Both the position numbers and the translations under genes were made by a program. From assembly GCA_048213135.1 (NCBI GenBank), contig PS015061.1, positions 302,628 to 366,627 of the forward strand: a stretch of DNA of 64,000 nucleotides. Reading direction: 5' to 3'. The first letter of the stretch is position 1. The number at the start of each line of letters is the position of its first letter. This DNA comes from Reclinomonas americana ATCC 50394 (Eukaryota). A model generated the notes under the pieces. That model made no database searches, was not told the origin of the DNA, and saw nothing but the letters and a program-made list of their open reading frames with translations. Shown here in pieces: positions 55,401 to 63,043 of the stretch.

Positions 55401-55647
55401 ACGACCTGCAGCAAACAGAACACATCCGTGGCAGCTGCTCACTCGACCACCGTGAATGCAGACGGTTCGCGGCGTTGGTTCCAAATTCACCGCCTTTGTC
55501 TTTCACGAGGCCACTAACGTGGTCTACGTGGGCACCGCCGACGGCAAGATCATTCAGTACTCGCTGGCTCTCGACGATTCACCTCCGGCCGATGGCGTGC
55601 AGGCGCCACCACCACAACTGCAAGCCGAGGGTGGTGCGTGCGATCAC

Positions 55648-55725
<78 letters not shown>

Positions 55726-55822
55726 GACGACGACGACGACGTACGTACGTACGTACGACGTACGTACGTACGTACGTACGTACGTACGTACGTACGTACG
55801 TACGTACGTACGTACGTACGTA

Positions 55823-55855
<33 letters not shown>

Positions 55856-56162
55856 GTCGCGTCGCGTCGTCGTCNNNNNNNNNNNNNNNNNNNNNNNNNN
55901 NNNNNNNNNNNNNNNNNNNNNNNNNNNNNNNNNNNNNNNNNNNNNNNNNNNNNNNNNNNNNNNNNNNNNNNNNNNNNNNNNNNNNNNNNNNNNNNNNNNN
56001 NNNNNNNNNNNNNNNNNNNNNNNNNNNNNNNNNNNNNNNNNNNNNNNNNNNNNNNNNNNNNNNNNNNNNNNNNNNNNNNNNNNNNNNNNNNNNNNNNNNN
56101 NNNNNNNNNNNNNNNNNNNNNNNNNNNNNNNNNNNNNNNNNNNNNNNNNNNNNNNNNNNNNN

Positions 56163-56202
<40 letters not shown>

Positions 56203-56624
56203 AGCCTATGCCTAACAGCATTCCGTCGACAGCATCGACTCTGTCGGTTCCCAAGGGTCTCAGCGGCATGTCGTCGTTGGCCAGTTCGGCACGCCCCGGC
56301 CTGCACTCGGCAGCATCGTATCGCACGTCGGCGACCTCGTCGGCACGGCCACACGACACCAGCCTTCGAGAGCTGATTGAGAGTGCCGGCGACAGCGACG
56401 ATCCCATCACATCCATGCTGATTGCCAAGGCGCACCAACTCAACCTCGACACGAACCGAAGCACCAGCAGTGTTGACGCACTGCTGGAGACGACGAACTT
56501 CACCAGCGTGCTTCCCGTGCGAGTACCACGCATCCCTGGCCGCGGCACCATCACCACCCAGCGATCACGAGGGGCGCTGTCGCGCGACAAGCAGGCATCG
56601 CCATCGCATCACTCCCTTCGGTAG
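52470..56624 (+). CDS. WD40-repeat protein, many introns
   Basis: Repeated GH...WD units: MEGHLGAIRCV...TGSVDRTIK(V)WD, GHEHTVTGV...SCSMDGAVMAW, GHNSEVLSV...SAGSDRCIRFWD, AHSGEVTAM...SCGLDGCLHLWD. Confidence 0.85.
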
Positions 56625-56767: not shown

Positions 56768-57504
56768 TCACTTGCGCTCCGTGGCGTCGGCGCCAAAGCC
56801 TGGAACTGTATCGAGCAGACAGAAATACACACAATGACGTGAGCACGGCAGCTGCTACCCTTCTCCTTTCGTGCACGCAACTCGGTGGCGTCTCGGTAAA
56901 GATGGAGCGGTCTATTGGCAACAGCGAGTCGTCAATCTGCTTGGCCTCGGTCAGCAGCGCCTCGGGGCCGTACTTTTGCAGCGCCGCCAATGCAGCCATG
57001 CGCGCCTTGATGCGTCGCATCTCGGCTGCTCTCAGCGTGTTGTGCTCTCGTGTGCGGCTCTGTGAGCCGAGGTGCGCCACCTGCGCCGACTTGGCGAATC
57101 CTTCGGGTTCCTTCTCGCGCGGGTCCTTCGGCAGCGCATTCTCGATTGGTGTCAGCTGCGTCTGGATGGCGGCCAGCGCCTGCCCGGCTTTGTCGGGCCC
57201 TTTGGCCTTTTTCGCAAAGAAGCGCCCCGCCAGGCGGTAAAGACTGCCTGCAGTGTTGCTGCGACACAATCAACACAATCAGATGGCAAATCTGGGAGTG
57301 CACAGGCGCACATTCATGCACATACACACACACACACAGAGGCGTAGGCTTACACGGCGAGAGCAACACATGATGCGTGCACACAAGGTGGAGTGCGACA
57401 TGTGCAACAGACGCGCACGCACACACACGCACACGCACACAGAAGGAAGCACACACATACACACACAGGGGAGCACCATGTGCATGCACAGCAACACACC
57501 TCAT
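56768..57504 (-). CDS. Mitochondrial large ribosomal subunit protein mL40-like
   Basis: Basic presequence-like N-terminus (…RLAGRFFAKKAKG), helical core and …DDSLLPIDRSIFTETPP|IPG motif recalled for mL40; the start needs a 5-nt first exon (ATGAG|GT). Confidence 0.6.
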
Positions 57505-57569: not shown

Positions 57570-60157
57570 TCAATAACCACGATCGACGTCGACCACATGT
57601 TTCAACGCTTGCACACCGTGCTCACGCCATGTTCTTCTTGTCTGCAGAATGATACGTGCCCCGCTGGCCTCCTCGGCATTGCCAGAAACGTGCGGCGTTA
57701 TACGGACGCGGGGATGCAGCCAGAGCGGCGAAGCGTCGGGCAGCGGTTCGCGACGTGTCACGTCGAGCGTGGCGCGACTGAGATGACCGCTGTCCAGTGC
57801 TGCCAGCAGATCCTCCTCTACCACGTGCTCGCCTCGCGATGGGTTCACCAGTGCGGCGCCCCGAGGCAGGCACGACAGCAGCCGGCTATCGATGATGTTC
57901 CGCGTCTCGTCGGTGAGCGCCAGCAGGTTGACGAGGACCTCGCACTGCGGCAGAAACTCGTTCTCCAACGCTTCGCGACCGGCATACACCGGGTACTCGG
58001 GTGCATCATCACCGTCGCCGTCTTCGGATCGACCTCTTCTCCAGGCCACCACACGGAAACCGAAGTGCGCCAGATGCTGGGCAGTGAAGGTGCCGAAGCT
58101 GCCGGTGCCCATGATGCCTACCGTCACGTCGGGGACGTCGCGCATCGGTAACCTTGCATCCCACACCTGCACAAATGTTGCATGAGAGAAAGGGAAGGGA
58201 GACACGGAGAGCGCCACAAAGGAGGCACCTTGTTGCGCTGCTGCTCCATGAAATCCTCAGTGCGTTTGACAATGTTGAGCACGGCCGTCAGCACCCAGTC
58301 GGCCATACGCCGCTGAGCGGCCGGATCCACCAGTTTCACAATGGGCAGATGCCGTGGCACCTGCTCCTTGTTGCGCATGAGGAAGTCGACGCCGGCACCG
58401 AGCCACGTGATCAATCCCACCGACGGACATTGTTCCGAGGTGAAGGGCAACGGACCCCACGCGATCGCCGTGTCTACCTGCGCCAGCACCTGCGCGTCGT
58501 CCTTGACCAGGTCCCATTCGTACACTGGAATGCCGGTCTTGGATGCCTGGGAGAGACGTGATGAATGCACAGCGATGGTGACGCACGCATGCATGCATGG
58601 CAAGGAAGCAAACCTCGGCGCGAATGGCAGCCAGGAAGCGTCGATACCAGGGCACGAGAGAGGGTTCTTGCACAGTCGGGCACCACAACATGGCACCGCA
58701 ATCGCCACTCGGCGACGATGGTGATGGTGATGAAGGTAATGGCTCAGTGCTGCTCATGATGGATACGCGATTGCGTTGTTGCTCCTCAGCGATGCGTCGA
58801 ATCACACGAGTGAGACGTGAACAAGCCTACAAGACGCAGAGGGATCAGCGCGCCTGCGTGTGCAACCAGAAAGGGACAACTGCGAAGAAAGGACCTCACG
58901 AAGAACGTCGGCCTCCAACACGAGACCGATGCGGACGTGGCCCTTGGCGGACTCGCCGAACGAGTCCGTCGGCAGCAGCGACACGTGCTCCTCCTCGAGA
59001 ACGCGGCTGGCGAACTCGGCCGACGTCACACCGAGTGGCGTGACGTTGATGAGCACAAACATGCCACCGTCGGGGCACACCAGGTCGACCAGCGGAGCCA
59101 GTGGCGACAACGCCTGCAGCACCACATCGCGTCGCTCCTGGTACTTGGCGCGCAGGAAGTTCGGATAGGCCGGTGAGCAGTCACGCAGCGCCGTCAGTGC
59201 ACCGACTTGGGCGAATGGAACCATGCCAAACAGCATCGCCTCGGCGTGAATAGACATGGCCTCGATCAGGCGCTCCGGTCCCACGGCCCAGCCCACACGC
59301 CAGCCCGCCATGCCCAGCGATTTGGAGATGCTGCCGAGAACCACAGTGCGGTCGCGCATGGCCTCGACCTGCGCCGGCGACACATGTTGCTTCCCGTCAA
59401 AGATAACGTCGGCGTACACCTCGTCACTGATGCACCACCAGTCGCGTCGCACGCACAGCTCGGTCAGCTGCTGCACAAACTCCGCGCTGGCTACGGCGCC
59501 GGTCGGATTGTGTGGCGAGTTCAGCAGCACCGCTCGCACTCGCTGTCCGCGCTGAGTATGCTCGTCGGCCGCCGCCTCCATGGCCGCAGCGTCAAAGACA
59601 AACGGTCGCGGCGATCCCGCACGAGCTCGCATCGACACTGGCAGGTAGACGCCGCCAGTGGAGGCGACCGTGGACGGGTAGGTGGCGTACGAGGGCTCCG
59701 GCACCAGCACACCATCGCCCTGATCGACCAGGCATCGCAGAATGGTGAAGAGTGCCGACTGACCGCCTGGCGTGATGATCACGTTCGAGGCAGTCACCTG
59801 TGCATGCATGCATGCGTGAGTGAGTGAGTGTGAGAGAGAAGCGGGAGGAGAGAGGCGATCGCTCACCGCATGACCGGTCATGCGTGCATGTCTCTGAGCG
59901 ATCAACACGCGCAGATCGTGATGGCCCGACGCGTCTGTGTACCCGTGCCACTTGCTCTCCTGTGCCGCCGATGCGGTGGCCGCAATGGCCTCGGCCGGCA
60001 GCGGCTGATCGGGCTGACCAATCGACAGCACAATCATGCGATCGGCGCTCACTTGCCCCGACGCCACCATCACTTGGGCGCGATGATGCATGGCCCACGG
60101 ATCGCCAGCATGCAGCCGTGTGTCGAGGAGTCGCCGAGCGACCTGACCCAGTCGCAT
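57570..60157 (-). CDS. Putative fusion: AruH-like class I PLP aminotransferase + linker + GhrA-like D-2-hydroxyacid dehydrogenase, 4 introns
   Basis: N-part: LSIGQPD, LNSPHNPTG, ISDEVY, SISKSLGMAGWRVG (PLP Lys), PDGGMF, GHVRIGL. C-part: LGAGVD, GIMGTGSFG, VNPSRG, LDVTRREPLP, ITPHVSG, VDRGY*. Joined in frame by intron 58827..58894. Confidence 0.8.
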
Positions 60158-60371: not shown

Positions 60372-63043
60372 CTAGTCGGACTCGGTGGTCGGCGCCTTCT
60401 TCTCGCCAGCCGCGGCCGCGTCACCGTTTCCATTGTTGTTGTTGTTACGTGGCTGAGGACGTGGCTTCCTTGGGCCGTAACGCTGCTGCTGCTGCTGCTG
60501 CTGCTGGTCGGCATTGTCACCGCCCTGCGCGCCAGACGACTGGCCGTAGCGGCGCGGACGCTGCTGTCGGTTGTCGGAGCCACCCTGAGCCTGTGCACCA
60601 CCCTCCTGACTGCCACCACGGCGACCGCGTCCAGAGCGATCGACGCGAGAGTCCTGCAGGTACTGCTTGTGGTCCTCCTCCGACATGTTGCGGAGCTTCT
60701 CCACGTACTGCTTGACGTACTCGGCGTGCGCCGGATCCTTCTCCACCTTGTTCATCTCGCCTGCGTGTGTACGTGCATGCATGCGTGAGCAATGTGGTTG
60801 AGGGAGAGAGGCGTGCAGCACGGCGCGGGGAGACGAAACTGAGCATCTCGTCGGCGACACCAAACTCGCGCGTACGAGCCGCACGACGGGCAACCACAGC
60901 GTATGCCTCGGCGGGCACAGCTGCATTGTTCTCGCGCAGTGACTTCAAAAGCTATACCCAAATACCATGTGAATCACCGGCAGAGACGGTTTCGATGTGA
61001 GAGAGTGTGCGCGCAAGACGCAACAGCCGAGGCGACATTCAAGCGACGCGAGCGAATGTGGCAGTTGGTCAACTCCACGTACGTGCGATCGTTCGGCGTC
61101 ACTCCACGCTCCGGCAGCATGTTGTACAGGTTCACAGCCGAGTCGGGCTGCGCACATGTCACAGTCAACAACCCGGCAACCAAGCACGACTTGTGACGCT
61201 AAAAAAAACTGCACGCAACATTCCGGCTGCACGAGGCAATTGCCGAGTTGTAGCTCTCAATGTCGGCCTTGACGCCCAACTCGGCGTCCGAGGCCAGAAT
61301 GGACAGTGCCAGCTCAGAATCGCTGGTCTCCGCCGCCGCCTGCAACAGTGCGTTGAAGGCGTCCAACGAGATCAAGCCATCCTATGCACACCATCCCCAC
61401 ACCACACAGTCAGCACTTGCCATGGACTTAGTTCTCCACCAGCGGCCAGCTCACCTTGGCGACGTGGCGCAGCGCAGTGAGCGCGTACTCGACGCTCTCA
61501 CGATCGCGACCGATTCCACGCACAATCTTGCGCAGGGTTCCGTCCGACACGCGGTAGTCTGCGAGCGGCGAGCGTGAGACGGCAACACCACCAACAACAT
61601 CACAATCACAATCACAATGACGCACTGAAGCGGGACATCTCGCCCAGGATGCGGAAAGCAGCCTCGCTGTTGCGACCCTGACCGCAGGCACCGGCCAGCG
61701 CGTCGTACAGGTGCAAGCTCGGCGTGAAACCAGCGCGCTCCACCAACTGCCAGCACTGTGTTTCCACCACACGAGGTCAGCATCGCACCCAATGACATTC
61801 TCTCCTCCCCTCCCTTCGAGCACGTGACGAACCGCCTCGGCCAGATCGACGCGTCCGCGTCTCCAGGCCACATTCAGTGCGTGCAACAGAGAGCCCTCGT
61901 CGATGGTCGCCGACTGGAAGGCAGCGTGAATGGCCTGCACAGAAGGCATGAGCAAGAGAAAGAGAAGTGCTCCCACTCATGTGCGCGCACCGTCAACACC
62001 GTGTTGAGCAGAACGGGGTCGCCAGTGGTGAGCGCACGGGTCAACAGATCGCGATACAACTGCTGCGGAATTTGTACTTGCTGCCCAATGGCACTGAGCA
62101 GCAGCCGGTTGGCGTCGGCCGAGCGACCGAGCTTGCTCAGCGCCAAGCACTTGACCACATACGTATGCGCCGTCGGCACCAGGCCCGGCACCTGCTCCAT
62201 CTCCTTGTAGGTGCGCACCACCGACTCAAAGTCACCAGCCCGCGAGTACGCATCCATGAGGTTGTTGAAGGTCCACACATTCGGCTGCATCTGTCGCCGC
62301 TCAATCTCCTTGAACGCATCGACAGCCGTGTCCACAGACTCGGCCGACGCCGCCAGTCCAATCACGTTGGTCAGCGCATGCACGTTGAGGTTGATCGAGG
62401 CATCGGACTTGGAGTCGTGATACATCTTCAGGCCCTCGTCCATGTAGCGACGCGCTTGCCGGAACGCCTGCGTCGATGCCGACAGGATTCTTGCGTCGGC
62501 CTGCACTCCACTGTTGCGGAAGCGCATCGCTGCCTCGGCCGCCTGTAAATGCAAGATGCGATCGCGGTGTGAGGAGGCGGAGAGAAAGAGCAAGAGATTC
62601 TCCTCCACATAAAAAAACACGCAACAAGACGGTACTTGCGATCCTGCAGCAGCTTGCTGATCTCCTCAAAGGCCACTCGACGCGTCTGATCGACATCCTC
62701 TGTGCATGCGCGCGCGTGTGTGAGAAGAGACAGGTGCAGGTGTGCATGTGCATGTCTACACAAGCCCCACTTCGCGTTCTTCCTCCCACGCGCACGACAG
62801 GAGGGAGGGAGGGCGCGAGAGCAAGAGAGAGCAACAGGGGTGCAGGGAGACGCAACTGCGACCAGAGCTGCCGGGGGCTTCCTCACTCCGCGCAGTCATC
62901 GACCGCGATGCCGAGGTGGCCATGCCGCACAGCGCCACCGTGGCGCCTGTTGTCGCCCACGGATTGCGCGCAAACAGCAGCAGCGACGACGAGGCCGCCC
63001 GCTGCGGCTGACGCAGCACCAGTGCGCCCAGAGAACGCAACAT
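60372..63043 (-). CDS. Pentatricopeptide-repeat (PPR) protein, probably mitochondrial
   Basis: MLRSLGALVLRQ... presequence-like start; PPR motifs QPNVWTFNNLMDAYSRAGDFESVVRTYKEMEQ and AVNLYNMLPERGVTPNDRTY; Gln/Arg/Gly-rich tail. Confidence 0.8.

What the first reader, a model, noticed from the sequence alone, without database searches (positions are those of the whole stretch)
57570..60157. Putative bifunctional aminotransferase / 2-hydroxyacid dehydrogenase fusion built from two bacterial-type enzymes
Seen: the aminotransferase ORF reaches ...GLVLEADVLRE, then a GT donor at 58894. A 68-nt intron with a CTGAT branch-like motif ends in TAG at 58827. Splicing gives ACSRLTRVIRRIAEEQQ, a linker (MSSTEPLPSSPSPSSPSG) and, without a stop, the dehydrogenase exons through ...VDRGY* at 57570. 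Knowledge: from recall, the N-half closely follows Pseudomonas AruH arginine:pyruvate transaminase, whose end is ...LREACRRI, matching the spliced VLRE|ACSRL. The C-half resembles GhrA glyoxylate/hydroxypyruvate reductase (GxGxxG, Arg/Glu/His catalytic residues, basic WRRGR loop suggesting NADPH). Inference: one polypeptide that transaminates an amino acid to its 2-oxo acid and reduces it to a D-2-hydroxy acid, possibly with channelling. I know of no such fusion. The naive ORF track splits and hides it.
Basis: partly seen in the sequence, partly recalled or inferred. Interest (0 to 1): 0.85.

Follow-up and report, generated by a model that had tools for sequence, protein, structure and literature searches.

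The report
Conserved transaminase-reductase fusion gene, eukaryotic
A protist gene joins an amino-acid transaminase and a keto-acid reductase in one protein, and the same pairing turns up in several distantly related unnamed sequences, which points to an unstudied two-step route that probably turns an amino acid into its D-hydroxy acid.

Summary
The minus strand carries a five-exon gene (four phase-0 GT-AG introns of 62-69 nt, 773 aa): a class I PLP aminotransferase of the AruH-like group, a short linker, and a GhrA-type D-2-hydroxyacid dehydrogenase, with all catalytic residues intact. No RNA data were available, but homology supports the fusion. Seven other sequences (31-64% identical to each other and to this one) carry both domains in one reading frame across the junction, two of them in eukaryotic DNA. 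A profile built from them scores the spliced model above eight alternatives. Trees are compatible with one old fusion. The dehydrogenase groups with eukaryotic GhrA-like proteins, so it is not a fresh pair of bacterial genes. Most likely it transaminates a non-acidic amino acid and reduces the 2-oxo acid with NADPH; the substrate is not established and channelling has no support. Nine literature searches found no description of this architecture. The nearest known kind is the PGDH-PSAT fusion of oomycetes, built from other families and running the other way. Verdict: real, undescribed variant, function untested.

The parts
59867..60157 (-). Exon 1, residues 1-97: N-terminal arm (W21, H24) and start of the aminotransferase (Y73)
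   Evidence: (PF00155 E 7.4e-5)
59798..59866 (-). Intron 1, 69 nt, phase 0, in frame and stop-free
   Evidence: keeping it costs 14 bits and splits the aminotransferase match
58895..59797 (-). Exon 2, residues 98-398: aminotransferase core with Q110, Y134, N194, D222, Y225, K256 (59323-59321), R264, R386
   Evidence: (PF00155 E 3.5e-52)
58827..58894 (-). Intron 2, 68 nt, phase 0, CTGAT at 58848-58844; the junction in question
   Evidence: not confirmed by RNA
58614..58826 (-). Exon 3, residues 399-469: last aminotransferase helix, Ser/Pro-rich linker (about 416-443), first strand and helix of the dehydrogenase (W458); in-frame ATGs at 58757 (M422) and 58691 (M444)
58547..58613 (-). Intron 3, 67 nt, phase 0
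58229..58546 (-). Exon 4, residues 470-575: dehydrogenase substrate-binding part with W499, G519, G521 and the D543-P544-x-A546-x-x-R549 motif typical of the fusions
   Evidence: (GhrA E 3.7e-4)
58167..58228 (-). Intron 4, 62 nt, phase 0
57570..58166 (-). Exon 5, residues 576-773 and stop: Rossmann GxGxxG (595-600), W617-R618-R619 cofactor loop, R686, D710, E715, H734 (57692-57690)
   Evidence: PF02826 E 9e-39; GhrA 146.9 bits

Best explanation
One gene encodes a 773-residue bifunctional enzyme of an old, patchily spread family found in eukaryotic DNA (shown by gene structure and homology, not by RNA). The N-terminal PLP domain moves the amino group of a non-acidic L-amino acid to an oxo-acid acceptor, probably pyruvate (inferred from AruH-like relatives). 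The C-terminal domain reduces the resulting 2-oxo acid to the D-2-hydroxy acid, probably with NADPH (inferred from GHRA kinship). The reduction would pull the reversible first step and remove the oxo acid. The fusion probably works by co-expression and proximity on a flexible linker, not a tunnel (inferred). My split on the donor, given this chemistry: long basic side chain (Arg, Lys, Orn) about 40%; Met, Leu or aromatic about 35%; Ser (to hydroxypyruvate, then D-glycerate) about 20%; other 5%.
For: Gene model and profile tests. Seven fused homologues with one reading frame across the junction: P0002 and P0003 (2 of 11 hits; clusters of 10 and 8 members), P0211 and P0257 (among 150 listed; 2 of the 8 long hits checked), P0306 (1 of 24), L084 and L091 (2 of 22 loci). 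PLP-binding and catalytic residues N194, D222, Y225, K256, R264, R386 and dehydrogenase R686 are invariant in all 8; D710, E715 and H734 in the 7 whose frame reaches them. Q110 aligns with K101 of Thermus aspartate aminotransferase and is Gln in 120 of 120 unfused hits; K101 as the dicarboxylate determinant is recalled. Many top hits are labelled arginine:pyruvate transaminase by their sources. 4 of 29 bacterial loci have an AruI-like neighbour (the one tested passes the NCBIfam cut-off). S. meliloti AspC, 40% like AruH, transaminates Arg, agmatine, ornithine and putrescine with pyruvate (PMC7268258, passages). GHRA enzymes are reductases, mostly NADPH-selective, with a large hydrophobic site; they take glyoxylate, hydroxypyruvate, phenylpyruvate and 2-ketobutyrate (PMC6303947, passages).
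Against: No RNA confirms any junction. Intron 2's donor (GTCCTT) is far from the usual GTRAGT consensus (consensus recalled), and exon 3 has no clear in-frame codon bias (-0.051 versus -0.113 and -0.041 in the other frames). The closest unfused relatives are only 44-47% identical, too far to fix a substrate. The fusions have drifted from AruH-like proteins: His258, present in 120 of 120 unfused hits, is replaced in all 8 fusions. Known best substrates of the two halves (Arg versus glyoxylate) do not match. No GhrA-type gene lies within 1.5 kb of the aminotransferase in 29 bacterial loci, so no operon backs the coupling. The strict GHRA NADPH fingerprint is only partly met.
Confidence: 0.66

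Rival explanations
1. The protein is a real fusion but runs the other way, like PGDH-PSAT: it oxidises a D-2-hydroxy acid taken from prey or surroundings and aminates the oxo acid, salvaging an amino acid.
For: Both reactions are reversible (established knowledge). The known fused analogue works in this direction (PMC2705460 and PMC5715807, passages). No light-harvesting protein was found in the own genome, which fits a heterotroph (incomplete assembly).
Against: 2HADHs that act as dehydrogenases nearly all use NAD+ and carry an Asp in the cofactor loop (PMC6303947). Position 618 is Arg or Ser and 619 is Arg or Lys in all 8 fusions.
Confidence: 0.1
2. The halves are fused but act on different metabolites, for example the reductase clears glyoxylate or hydroxypyruvate while the transaminase handles basic amino acids; the fusion serves co-regulation or co-targeting only.
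For: The characterised substrate ranges of AruH-like and GHRA enzymes barely overlap. The model of homologue L091 has confident domains (mean pLDDT 87) but a linker under 50 and pTM 0.58, so no fixed packing is predicted. A stand-alone member of the same dehydrogenase clade exists in Arcella.
Against: The fusion persists across sequences only 31-40% identical and both halves carry shared fusion-type residues, which is more typical of coupled steps (inference).
Confidence: 0.15
3. In this organism the locus gives two proteins, or adds a dehydrogenase-only isoform starting at M422 (58757, 352 aa), and the full fusion is minor or absent.
For: The ATG at 58757 has the same five upstream bases as the start at 60157; CATC precedes ATG 17 times in the window against 9.8 expected. 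If intron 2 is kept, a 428-aa aminotransferase with a stop results.
Against: That product loses the conserved last helix (profile ends at 379 of 398). Exon 3 has no stop, and none of three poly(A)-like hexamers occurs in 58500-59000. Seven homologues are fused at the same place, and 5 of 7 have no Met in the aligned linker after the last helix region (alignment; P0142 and P0211 do).
Confidence: 0.07
4. The PLP domain is not a transaminase but a GntC/VioD-type eliminase or cyclase of modified arginine.
For: GntC is the top NCBIfam model for exon 2 (229 bits).
Against: It is far below the cut-off of 415, and GntC is also top, at 247-302 bits, for all 4 unfused AruH-like proteins tested. The solved GntC chain matches only weakly (8fft, E 2e-18) compared with Thermus AspAT (1e-42).
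Confidence: 0.02

Closest known systems
PGDH-PSAT fusion of oomycetes, brown algae and Thecamonas (PMC2705460, PMC5715807; passages)
   Same: One eukaryotic polypeptide joining a D-2-hydroxyacid dehydrogenase and an aminotransferase for consecutive steps through a 2-oxo acid.
   Different: There: SerA-type dehydrogenase first, phosphoserine aminotransferase (class V, recalled) second, oxidation then amination. Here: class I AruH-like domain first, GHRA-type domain second, probably deamination then reduction.
AruH arginine:pyruvate transaminase group (P. aeruginosa AruH; S. meliloti AspC, PMC7268258 passages)
   Same: Fold type I class I enzyme; N-terminal W-x-x-H arm, Gln at position 110 and all PLP residues; 39% identity over 414 columns to P0017, labelled AruH by NCBI.
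   Different: Bacterial members found here are stand-alone, some beside the AruI decarboxylase; here it is fused to a reductase and His258 is lost. P. aeruginosa AruH itself was not compared directly.
GHRA subfamily of 2HADH (E. coli GhrA; PMC6303947 passages; PDB 6oxn, 6p35)
   Same: Best NCBIfam and PDB match for exon 5; Arg-Glu-His triad; a conserved Trp at 499 that probably matches the GHRA Trp; no Asp in the cofactor loop.
   Different: Below the GhrA equivalog cut-off; the [ST]R[ST]x[RK] fingerprint is only partly kept; it sits in a eukaryotic branch and is fused.
Tyrosine aminotransferase plus hydroxyphenylpyruvate reductase of rosmarinic acid synthesis (PMC8041713 passages; pathway order recalled)
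   Same: Class I aminotransferase followed by a 2HADH, turning an L-amino acid into a 2-hydroxy acid.
   Different: Separate proteins from other subfamilies (HPPR is GHRB, PMC6303947).
Methionine aminotransferase and MTOB reductase steps of the DMSP transamination pathway (PMC5395565, PMC11306096; passages)
   Same: Same chemistry: aminotransferase then NADPH-linked reductase.
   Different: No DsyB-like methyltransferase and no light-harvesting gene were found in the own genome; no link to DMSP was shown.

Membership tests
Class I/II PLP aminotransferase (PF00155) | Pfam score above cut-off | tested here: met
   178.2 bits for exon 2 and 22.5 for exon 1, cut-off 19.7
Class I/II PLP aminotransferase (PF00155) | PLP lysine, Asp, Asn, Tyr and the two arginines | tested here: met
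   K256, D222, N194, Y225, R264, R386
AruH arginine:pyruvate transaminase | Nearest relatives are AruH-labelled proteins | tested here: met
   Top hits at 39-47% carry that source label where named as more than a generic aminotransferase; labels are automatic
AruH arginine:pyruvate transaminase | His of the K-S-H-A-M motif conserved in the unfused group | tested here: not met
   Leu258 here; His in 120 of 120 unfused hits; replaced in all 8 fusions
AruH arginine:pyruvate transaminase | Preference for arginine and pyruvate | not testable with these tools
   Needs an enzyme assay
GntC cyclodehydratase (NF041364) | Score above 415 bits | tested here: not met
   229 bits for exon 2; 211-277 for 3 full-length fused homologues
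D-2-hydroxyacid dehydrogenase (PF02826) | Pfam score, GxGxxG and Arg-Glu-His triad | tested here: met
   133.1 bits, cut-off 25.1; G595/G597/G600, R686, E715, H734
GHRA subfamily | Placement among GhrA-like proteins | tested here: met
   Best model GhrA; inside the GhrA-like set against the outgroup
GHRA subfamily | NADPH fingerprint [ST]R[ST]x[RK] | tested here: inconclusive
   Residues 618-622 read R-R-G-R-S: Arg619 kept, no Asp, the rest differs
GHRA subfamily | GhrA equivalog cut-off 403 bits | tested here: not met
   146.9 plus 19.6 for exons 5 and 4; 144-186 for full fused homologues
PGDH-PSAT fusion | SerA domain N-terminal, phosphoserine aminotransferase C-terminal | tested here: not met
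   Order reversed; PF00155 and GhrA-type domains
DMSP pathway MAT/MR | Host has an MTHB S-methyltransferase (DSYB, DSYE, TpMMT) | tested here: inconclusive
   PF00891 search gave 4 matches; the eukaryotic-looking one tested resembles HIOMT/COMT and no chain named DsyB was among its 54 PDB hits. DSYE and TpMMT were not tested.

The most novel reading that the evidence does not exclude
The family is a dedicated one-protein route from L-methionine (or a basic amino acid) to its D-2-hydroxy acid, and in some carriers it supplies MTHB, that is, it is the methionine aminotransferase plus NADPH-linked MTOB reductase pair of the DMSP transamination pathway, for which the two papers read name no verified gene.
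Probability: 0.07. Interest if true: 0.85.

Novelty: new variant of a known kind. Interest (0 to 1): 0.55.

Why it matters
A fusion kept in sequences only about one third identical is a strong hint that two enzymes share a pathway. Here it couples two subfamilies whose physiological roles are poorly known: the GHRA role is stated to be undiscovered (PMC6303947), and AruH-like enzymes are described from bacteria. One recombinant protein and a panel of 20 amino acids would reveal the pathway, and might give a gene for an orphan amino acid to D-hydroxy acid step in microbial eukaryotes. It is also a natural one-chain cascade of possible use in biocatalysis. It does not add new chemistry or a new fold.

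Tried and rejected
RNA evidence: no RNA holder listed. The one run listed, X1, gave a single unspliced 611-nt contig over 59569-60178 that does not reach the junction. A close relative in metagenomes: none with exon 4 as query (102 pattern matches, 0 confirmed). Viral contigs: 17 loci, aminotransferase matches only. Plasmids: 0 of 1483 matching records cover 80% of P0211. ESM Atlas: no cluster with both domains among the rows shown, all scores under 0.9. Operon origin: no GhrA-type neighbour within 1.5 kb in 29 loci from 26 of 301 genomes; two Pseudomonas-type loci have a 30%-identical dehydrogenase on the opposite strand; the flank is short. Host identity: no 18S rRNA found, only a bacterial-size small-subunit rRNA on C1. 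Single-sequence fold of P0211 was useless (pLDDT 41.5). A mixed 67-row alignment misaligned the halves and was not used. The careful tree and two AU tests did not finish and were not resumed. Pairwise comparison of exon 3 with Arcella P0241 was not significant. The bacterial promoter scan does not apply to a eukaryote. A mitochondrial presequence reading of the N-terminus was set aside because the same Met-Arg-rich arm aligns with bacterial P0017 and with P0306; no targeting predictor was available. The AruH characterisation paper (PMC1913410) was not held. Complex prediction was not run: two copies exceed the size limit.

Full report
Setting. The window is G000:C53:302628-366627 of a 108-Mb, 16,441-contig assembly. 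The gene lies between a PPR gene upstream and an exon with a weak mitochondrial ribosomal protein match downstream, so the setting is eukaryotic. The assembly also holds bacterial contigs. No chlorophyll a/b-binding protein was found (incomplete assembly). The organism was not identified.

Observation. Five minus-strand exons (60157-59867, 59797-58895, 58826-58614, 58546-58229, 58166-57570) join in phase 0 over four GT-AG introns of 69, 68, 67 and 62 nt into 773 residues. Exons 1-2 match PF00155 and exon 5 matches PF02826 above cut-off. Best NCBIfam models are GntC (229 bits, cut-off 415) and GhrA (147, cut-off 403). Best solved relatives are Thermus aspartate aminotransferase and GhrA. Each half has one close copy in the own genome; the other 22 and 7 matches are 23-41% identical.

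Is the junction real? No RNA could be laid, so the case rests on homology. Exon 3 starts with the last helix of the aminotransferase: a profile of 120 unfused hits reaches position 395 of 398 only with acceptor 58827, and stops at 377-382 with the intron kept, exon 3 skipped or any of three later in-frame acceptors. The same exon then runs without a stop through a Ser/Pro linker into the first strand and helix of the dehydrogenase, including W458, invariant in all eight fusions. Against a profile of seven fused homologues the model scores 672.7 bits, above all eight alternatives. Against this: intron 2's donor is weak, exon 3 shows no clear codon bias, and the in-frame ATG at 58757 has the same upstream context as the main start. 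I put the fused protein at about 0.93 and leave open an extra short isoform.

A family, not a one-off. P0002 and P0003 (2 of 11 long hits), P0211 and P0257 (2 of the 8 long hits scanned), P0306 (1 of 24), and L084 and L091 (2 of 22 pattern loci) all have PF00155 then PF02826 in one frame. P0142 stood in for the P0003 cluster in alignments. L091 is intronless; L084 has one GT-AG intron near the start; both lie downstream of a WD40 gene with intron-like breaks, so they are eukaryotic. The other five have no name or DNA context; P0003 and P0306 carry insertions that look like retained introns, and P0211 is unplaced. Pairwise identity is 31-64%, and 32-40% to the window protein. The homologue searches scored only the best word-sharing candidates, so seven is a floor.

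Origin. In the dehydrogenase tree the fusions group with P0166 (365 aa, possibly the rear part of an intron-split fusion) and stand-alone Arcella P0241 (SH-aLRT 95 with 6 fusions; 80 with 8), next to stand-alone green algal proteins. In the aminotransferase tree all six grouped at 86, but P0211, a long branch, fell among the unfused proteins in three other trees, where the remaining fusions stayed together (85-91). Holding six together was not rejected (p-AU 0.749, likelihood 3.3 higher). These are quick trees on selected rows: 45 of 103 unnamed full-length dehydrogenase hits and 22; 28 aminotransferases left after removing near-copies from 120. Shared changes support one origin: His258 (120 of 120 unfused hits) is lost in all eight, and A546, R549 are invariant, while G737 is present in the seven that reach it. 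So one old fusion is the simplest reading, not a proven one. The aminotransferase's named relatives are bacterial; the dehydrogenase looks already eukaryotic. No bacterial operon pairing was seen.

Mechanism. Shown: both active sites are complete. Inferred: transamination of a non-acidic amino acid, since Gln110 replaces the Thermus Lys101 (its role is recalled) and relatives act on basic amines with pyruvate (PMC7268258, passages; AruI and HisP-type neighbours). Inferred: reduction with NADPH to a D-2-hydroxy acid (PMC6303947, passages); the cofactor loop has no Asp but meets the fingerprint only in part. A model of L091 from a 33-row alignment has confident domains (pLDDT 87), a linker under 50 at 413-426 and pTM 0.58; the listed structural matches each cover one half only. 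That gives no support for channelling, though a monomer model cannot exclude it. The substrate is open: the best-known substrates of the two parent groups do not match, and both halves have diverged.

Comparison with what is known. The nearest kind is the PGDH-PSAT fusion (PMC2705460 and PMC5715807, passages): the same idea, other families, reverse order and direction. The unfused chemistry is that of tyrosine aminotransferase plus hydroxyphenylpyruvate reductase (PMC8041713, passages; order recalled) and of the first two DMSP steps (PMC5395565, passages; PMC11306096, passages, where the one candidate reductase tested had no activity). The DMSP reading is weak here: the host shows no light-harvesting gene and no DsyB-like hit, and those steps may be done by general enzymes, since dsyB alone confers DMSP synthesis on Rhizobium. 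The GntC label is a profile artefact (bioRxiv 10.1101/2023.03.21.533663, passages).

Novelty. Nine searches of the held library (listings, with passages read for nine papers, including 10.1101/2021.04.07.438883) showed no report of a PF00155 + PF02826 fusion. Subscription journals and InterPro were not searchable. I did not open supplements; the tables of PMC6303947 and PMC2705460 could list such proteins. The scan's own index had no matching note by words or sequence. I rate it a new variant of a known kind: a real, conserved, apparently undescribed two-enzyme fusion that makes an unknown eukaryotic pathway testable with one protein. Interest 0.55.

Noticed in passing
L045:1219-3276 (+); also L046, L047 (G096, G088, G236): In three bacterial genomes an AruH-like aminotransferase shares one 682-686 aa open frame with downstream sequence; in L045 this is a HisP-type ABC ATPase: an aminotransferase-transporter ATPase fusion.
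   Followed up: partly
L025:2624-3703 (-), L029:254-1216 (+): AruH-like genes in some bacteria sit beside a homocysteine S-methyltransferase-like gene, and in L025 an FAD oxidoreductase; may hint at a methylated or sulfur substrate.
   Followed up: partly
P0241 (Arcella intermedia, EukProt): Stand-alone GhrA-like protein with an N-terminal extension that looks like a targeting peptide; it groups with the fused dehydrogenases: a fission or a pre-fusion state.
   Followed up: partly
window 56880-57257 (-): Exon with a weak Pfam MRP-L28 match (E 3.8e-4, below cut-off), directly downstream of the fusion gene.
   Followed up: partly
window 60372-62665 (-): Multi-exon PPR gene ending about 215 nt upstream of the fusion start, with a Gln/Gly/Asn-rich tail.
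   Followed up: partly
window, within 55500-56300: Run of N flanked by GA and TACG simple repeats.
   Followed up: no
G000 C1, C2, C350, C696, C7841: Bacterial-looking contigs in the assembly, with a bacterial-size small-subunit rRNA on C1.
   Followed up: no
L051/L052 and L014/L015: Pairs of matches with identical scores on different contigs (an O-methyltransferase and another 2-hydroxyacid dehydrogenase), suggesting duplicated haplotigs.
   Followed up: no
window 59583, run X1: One extra base near the end of a depth-2.4 contig; probably an error, as homology supports the window's frame.
   Followed up: no
P0001, P0195: P0001 joins an AruH-like part to a TPP enzyme start with junk after it (probably a frameshift); P0195 joins CinA to a GhrA-like domain.
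   Followed up: no
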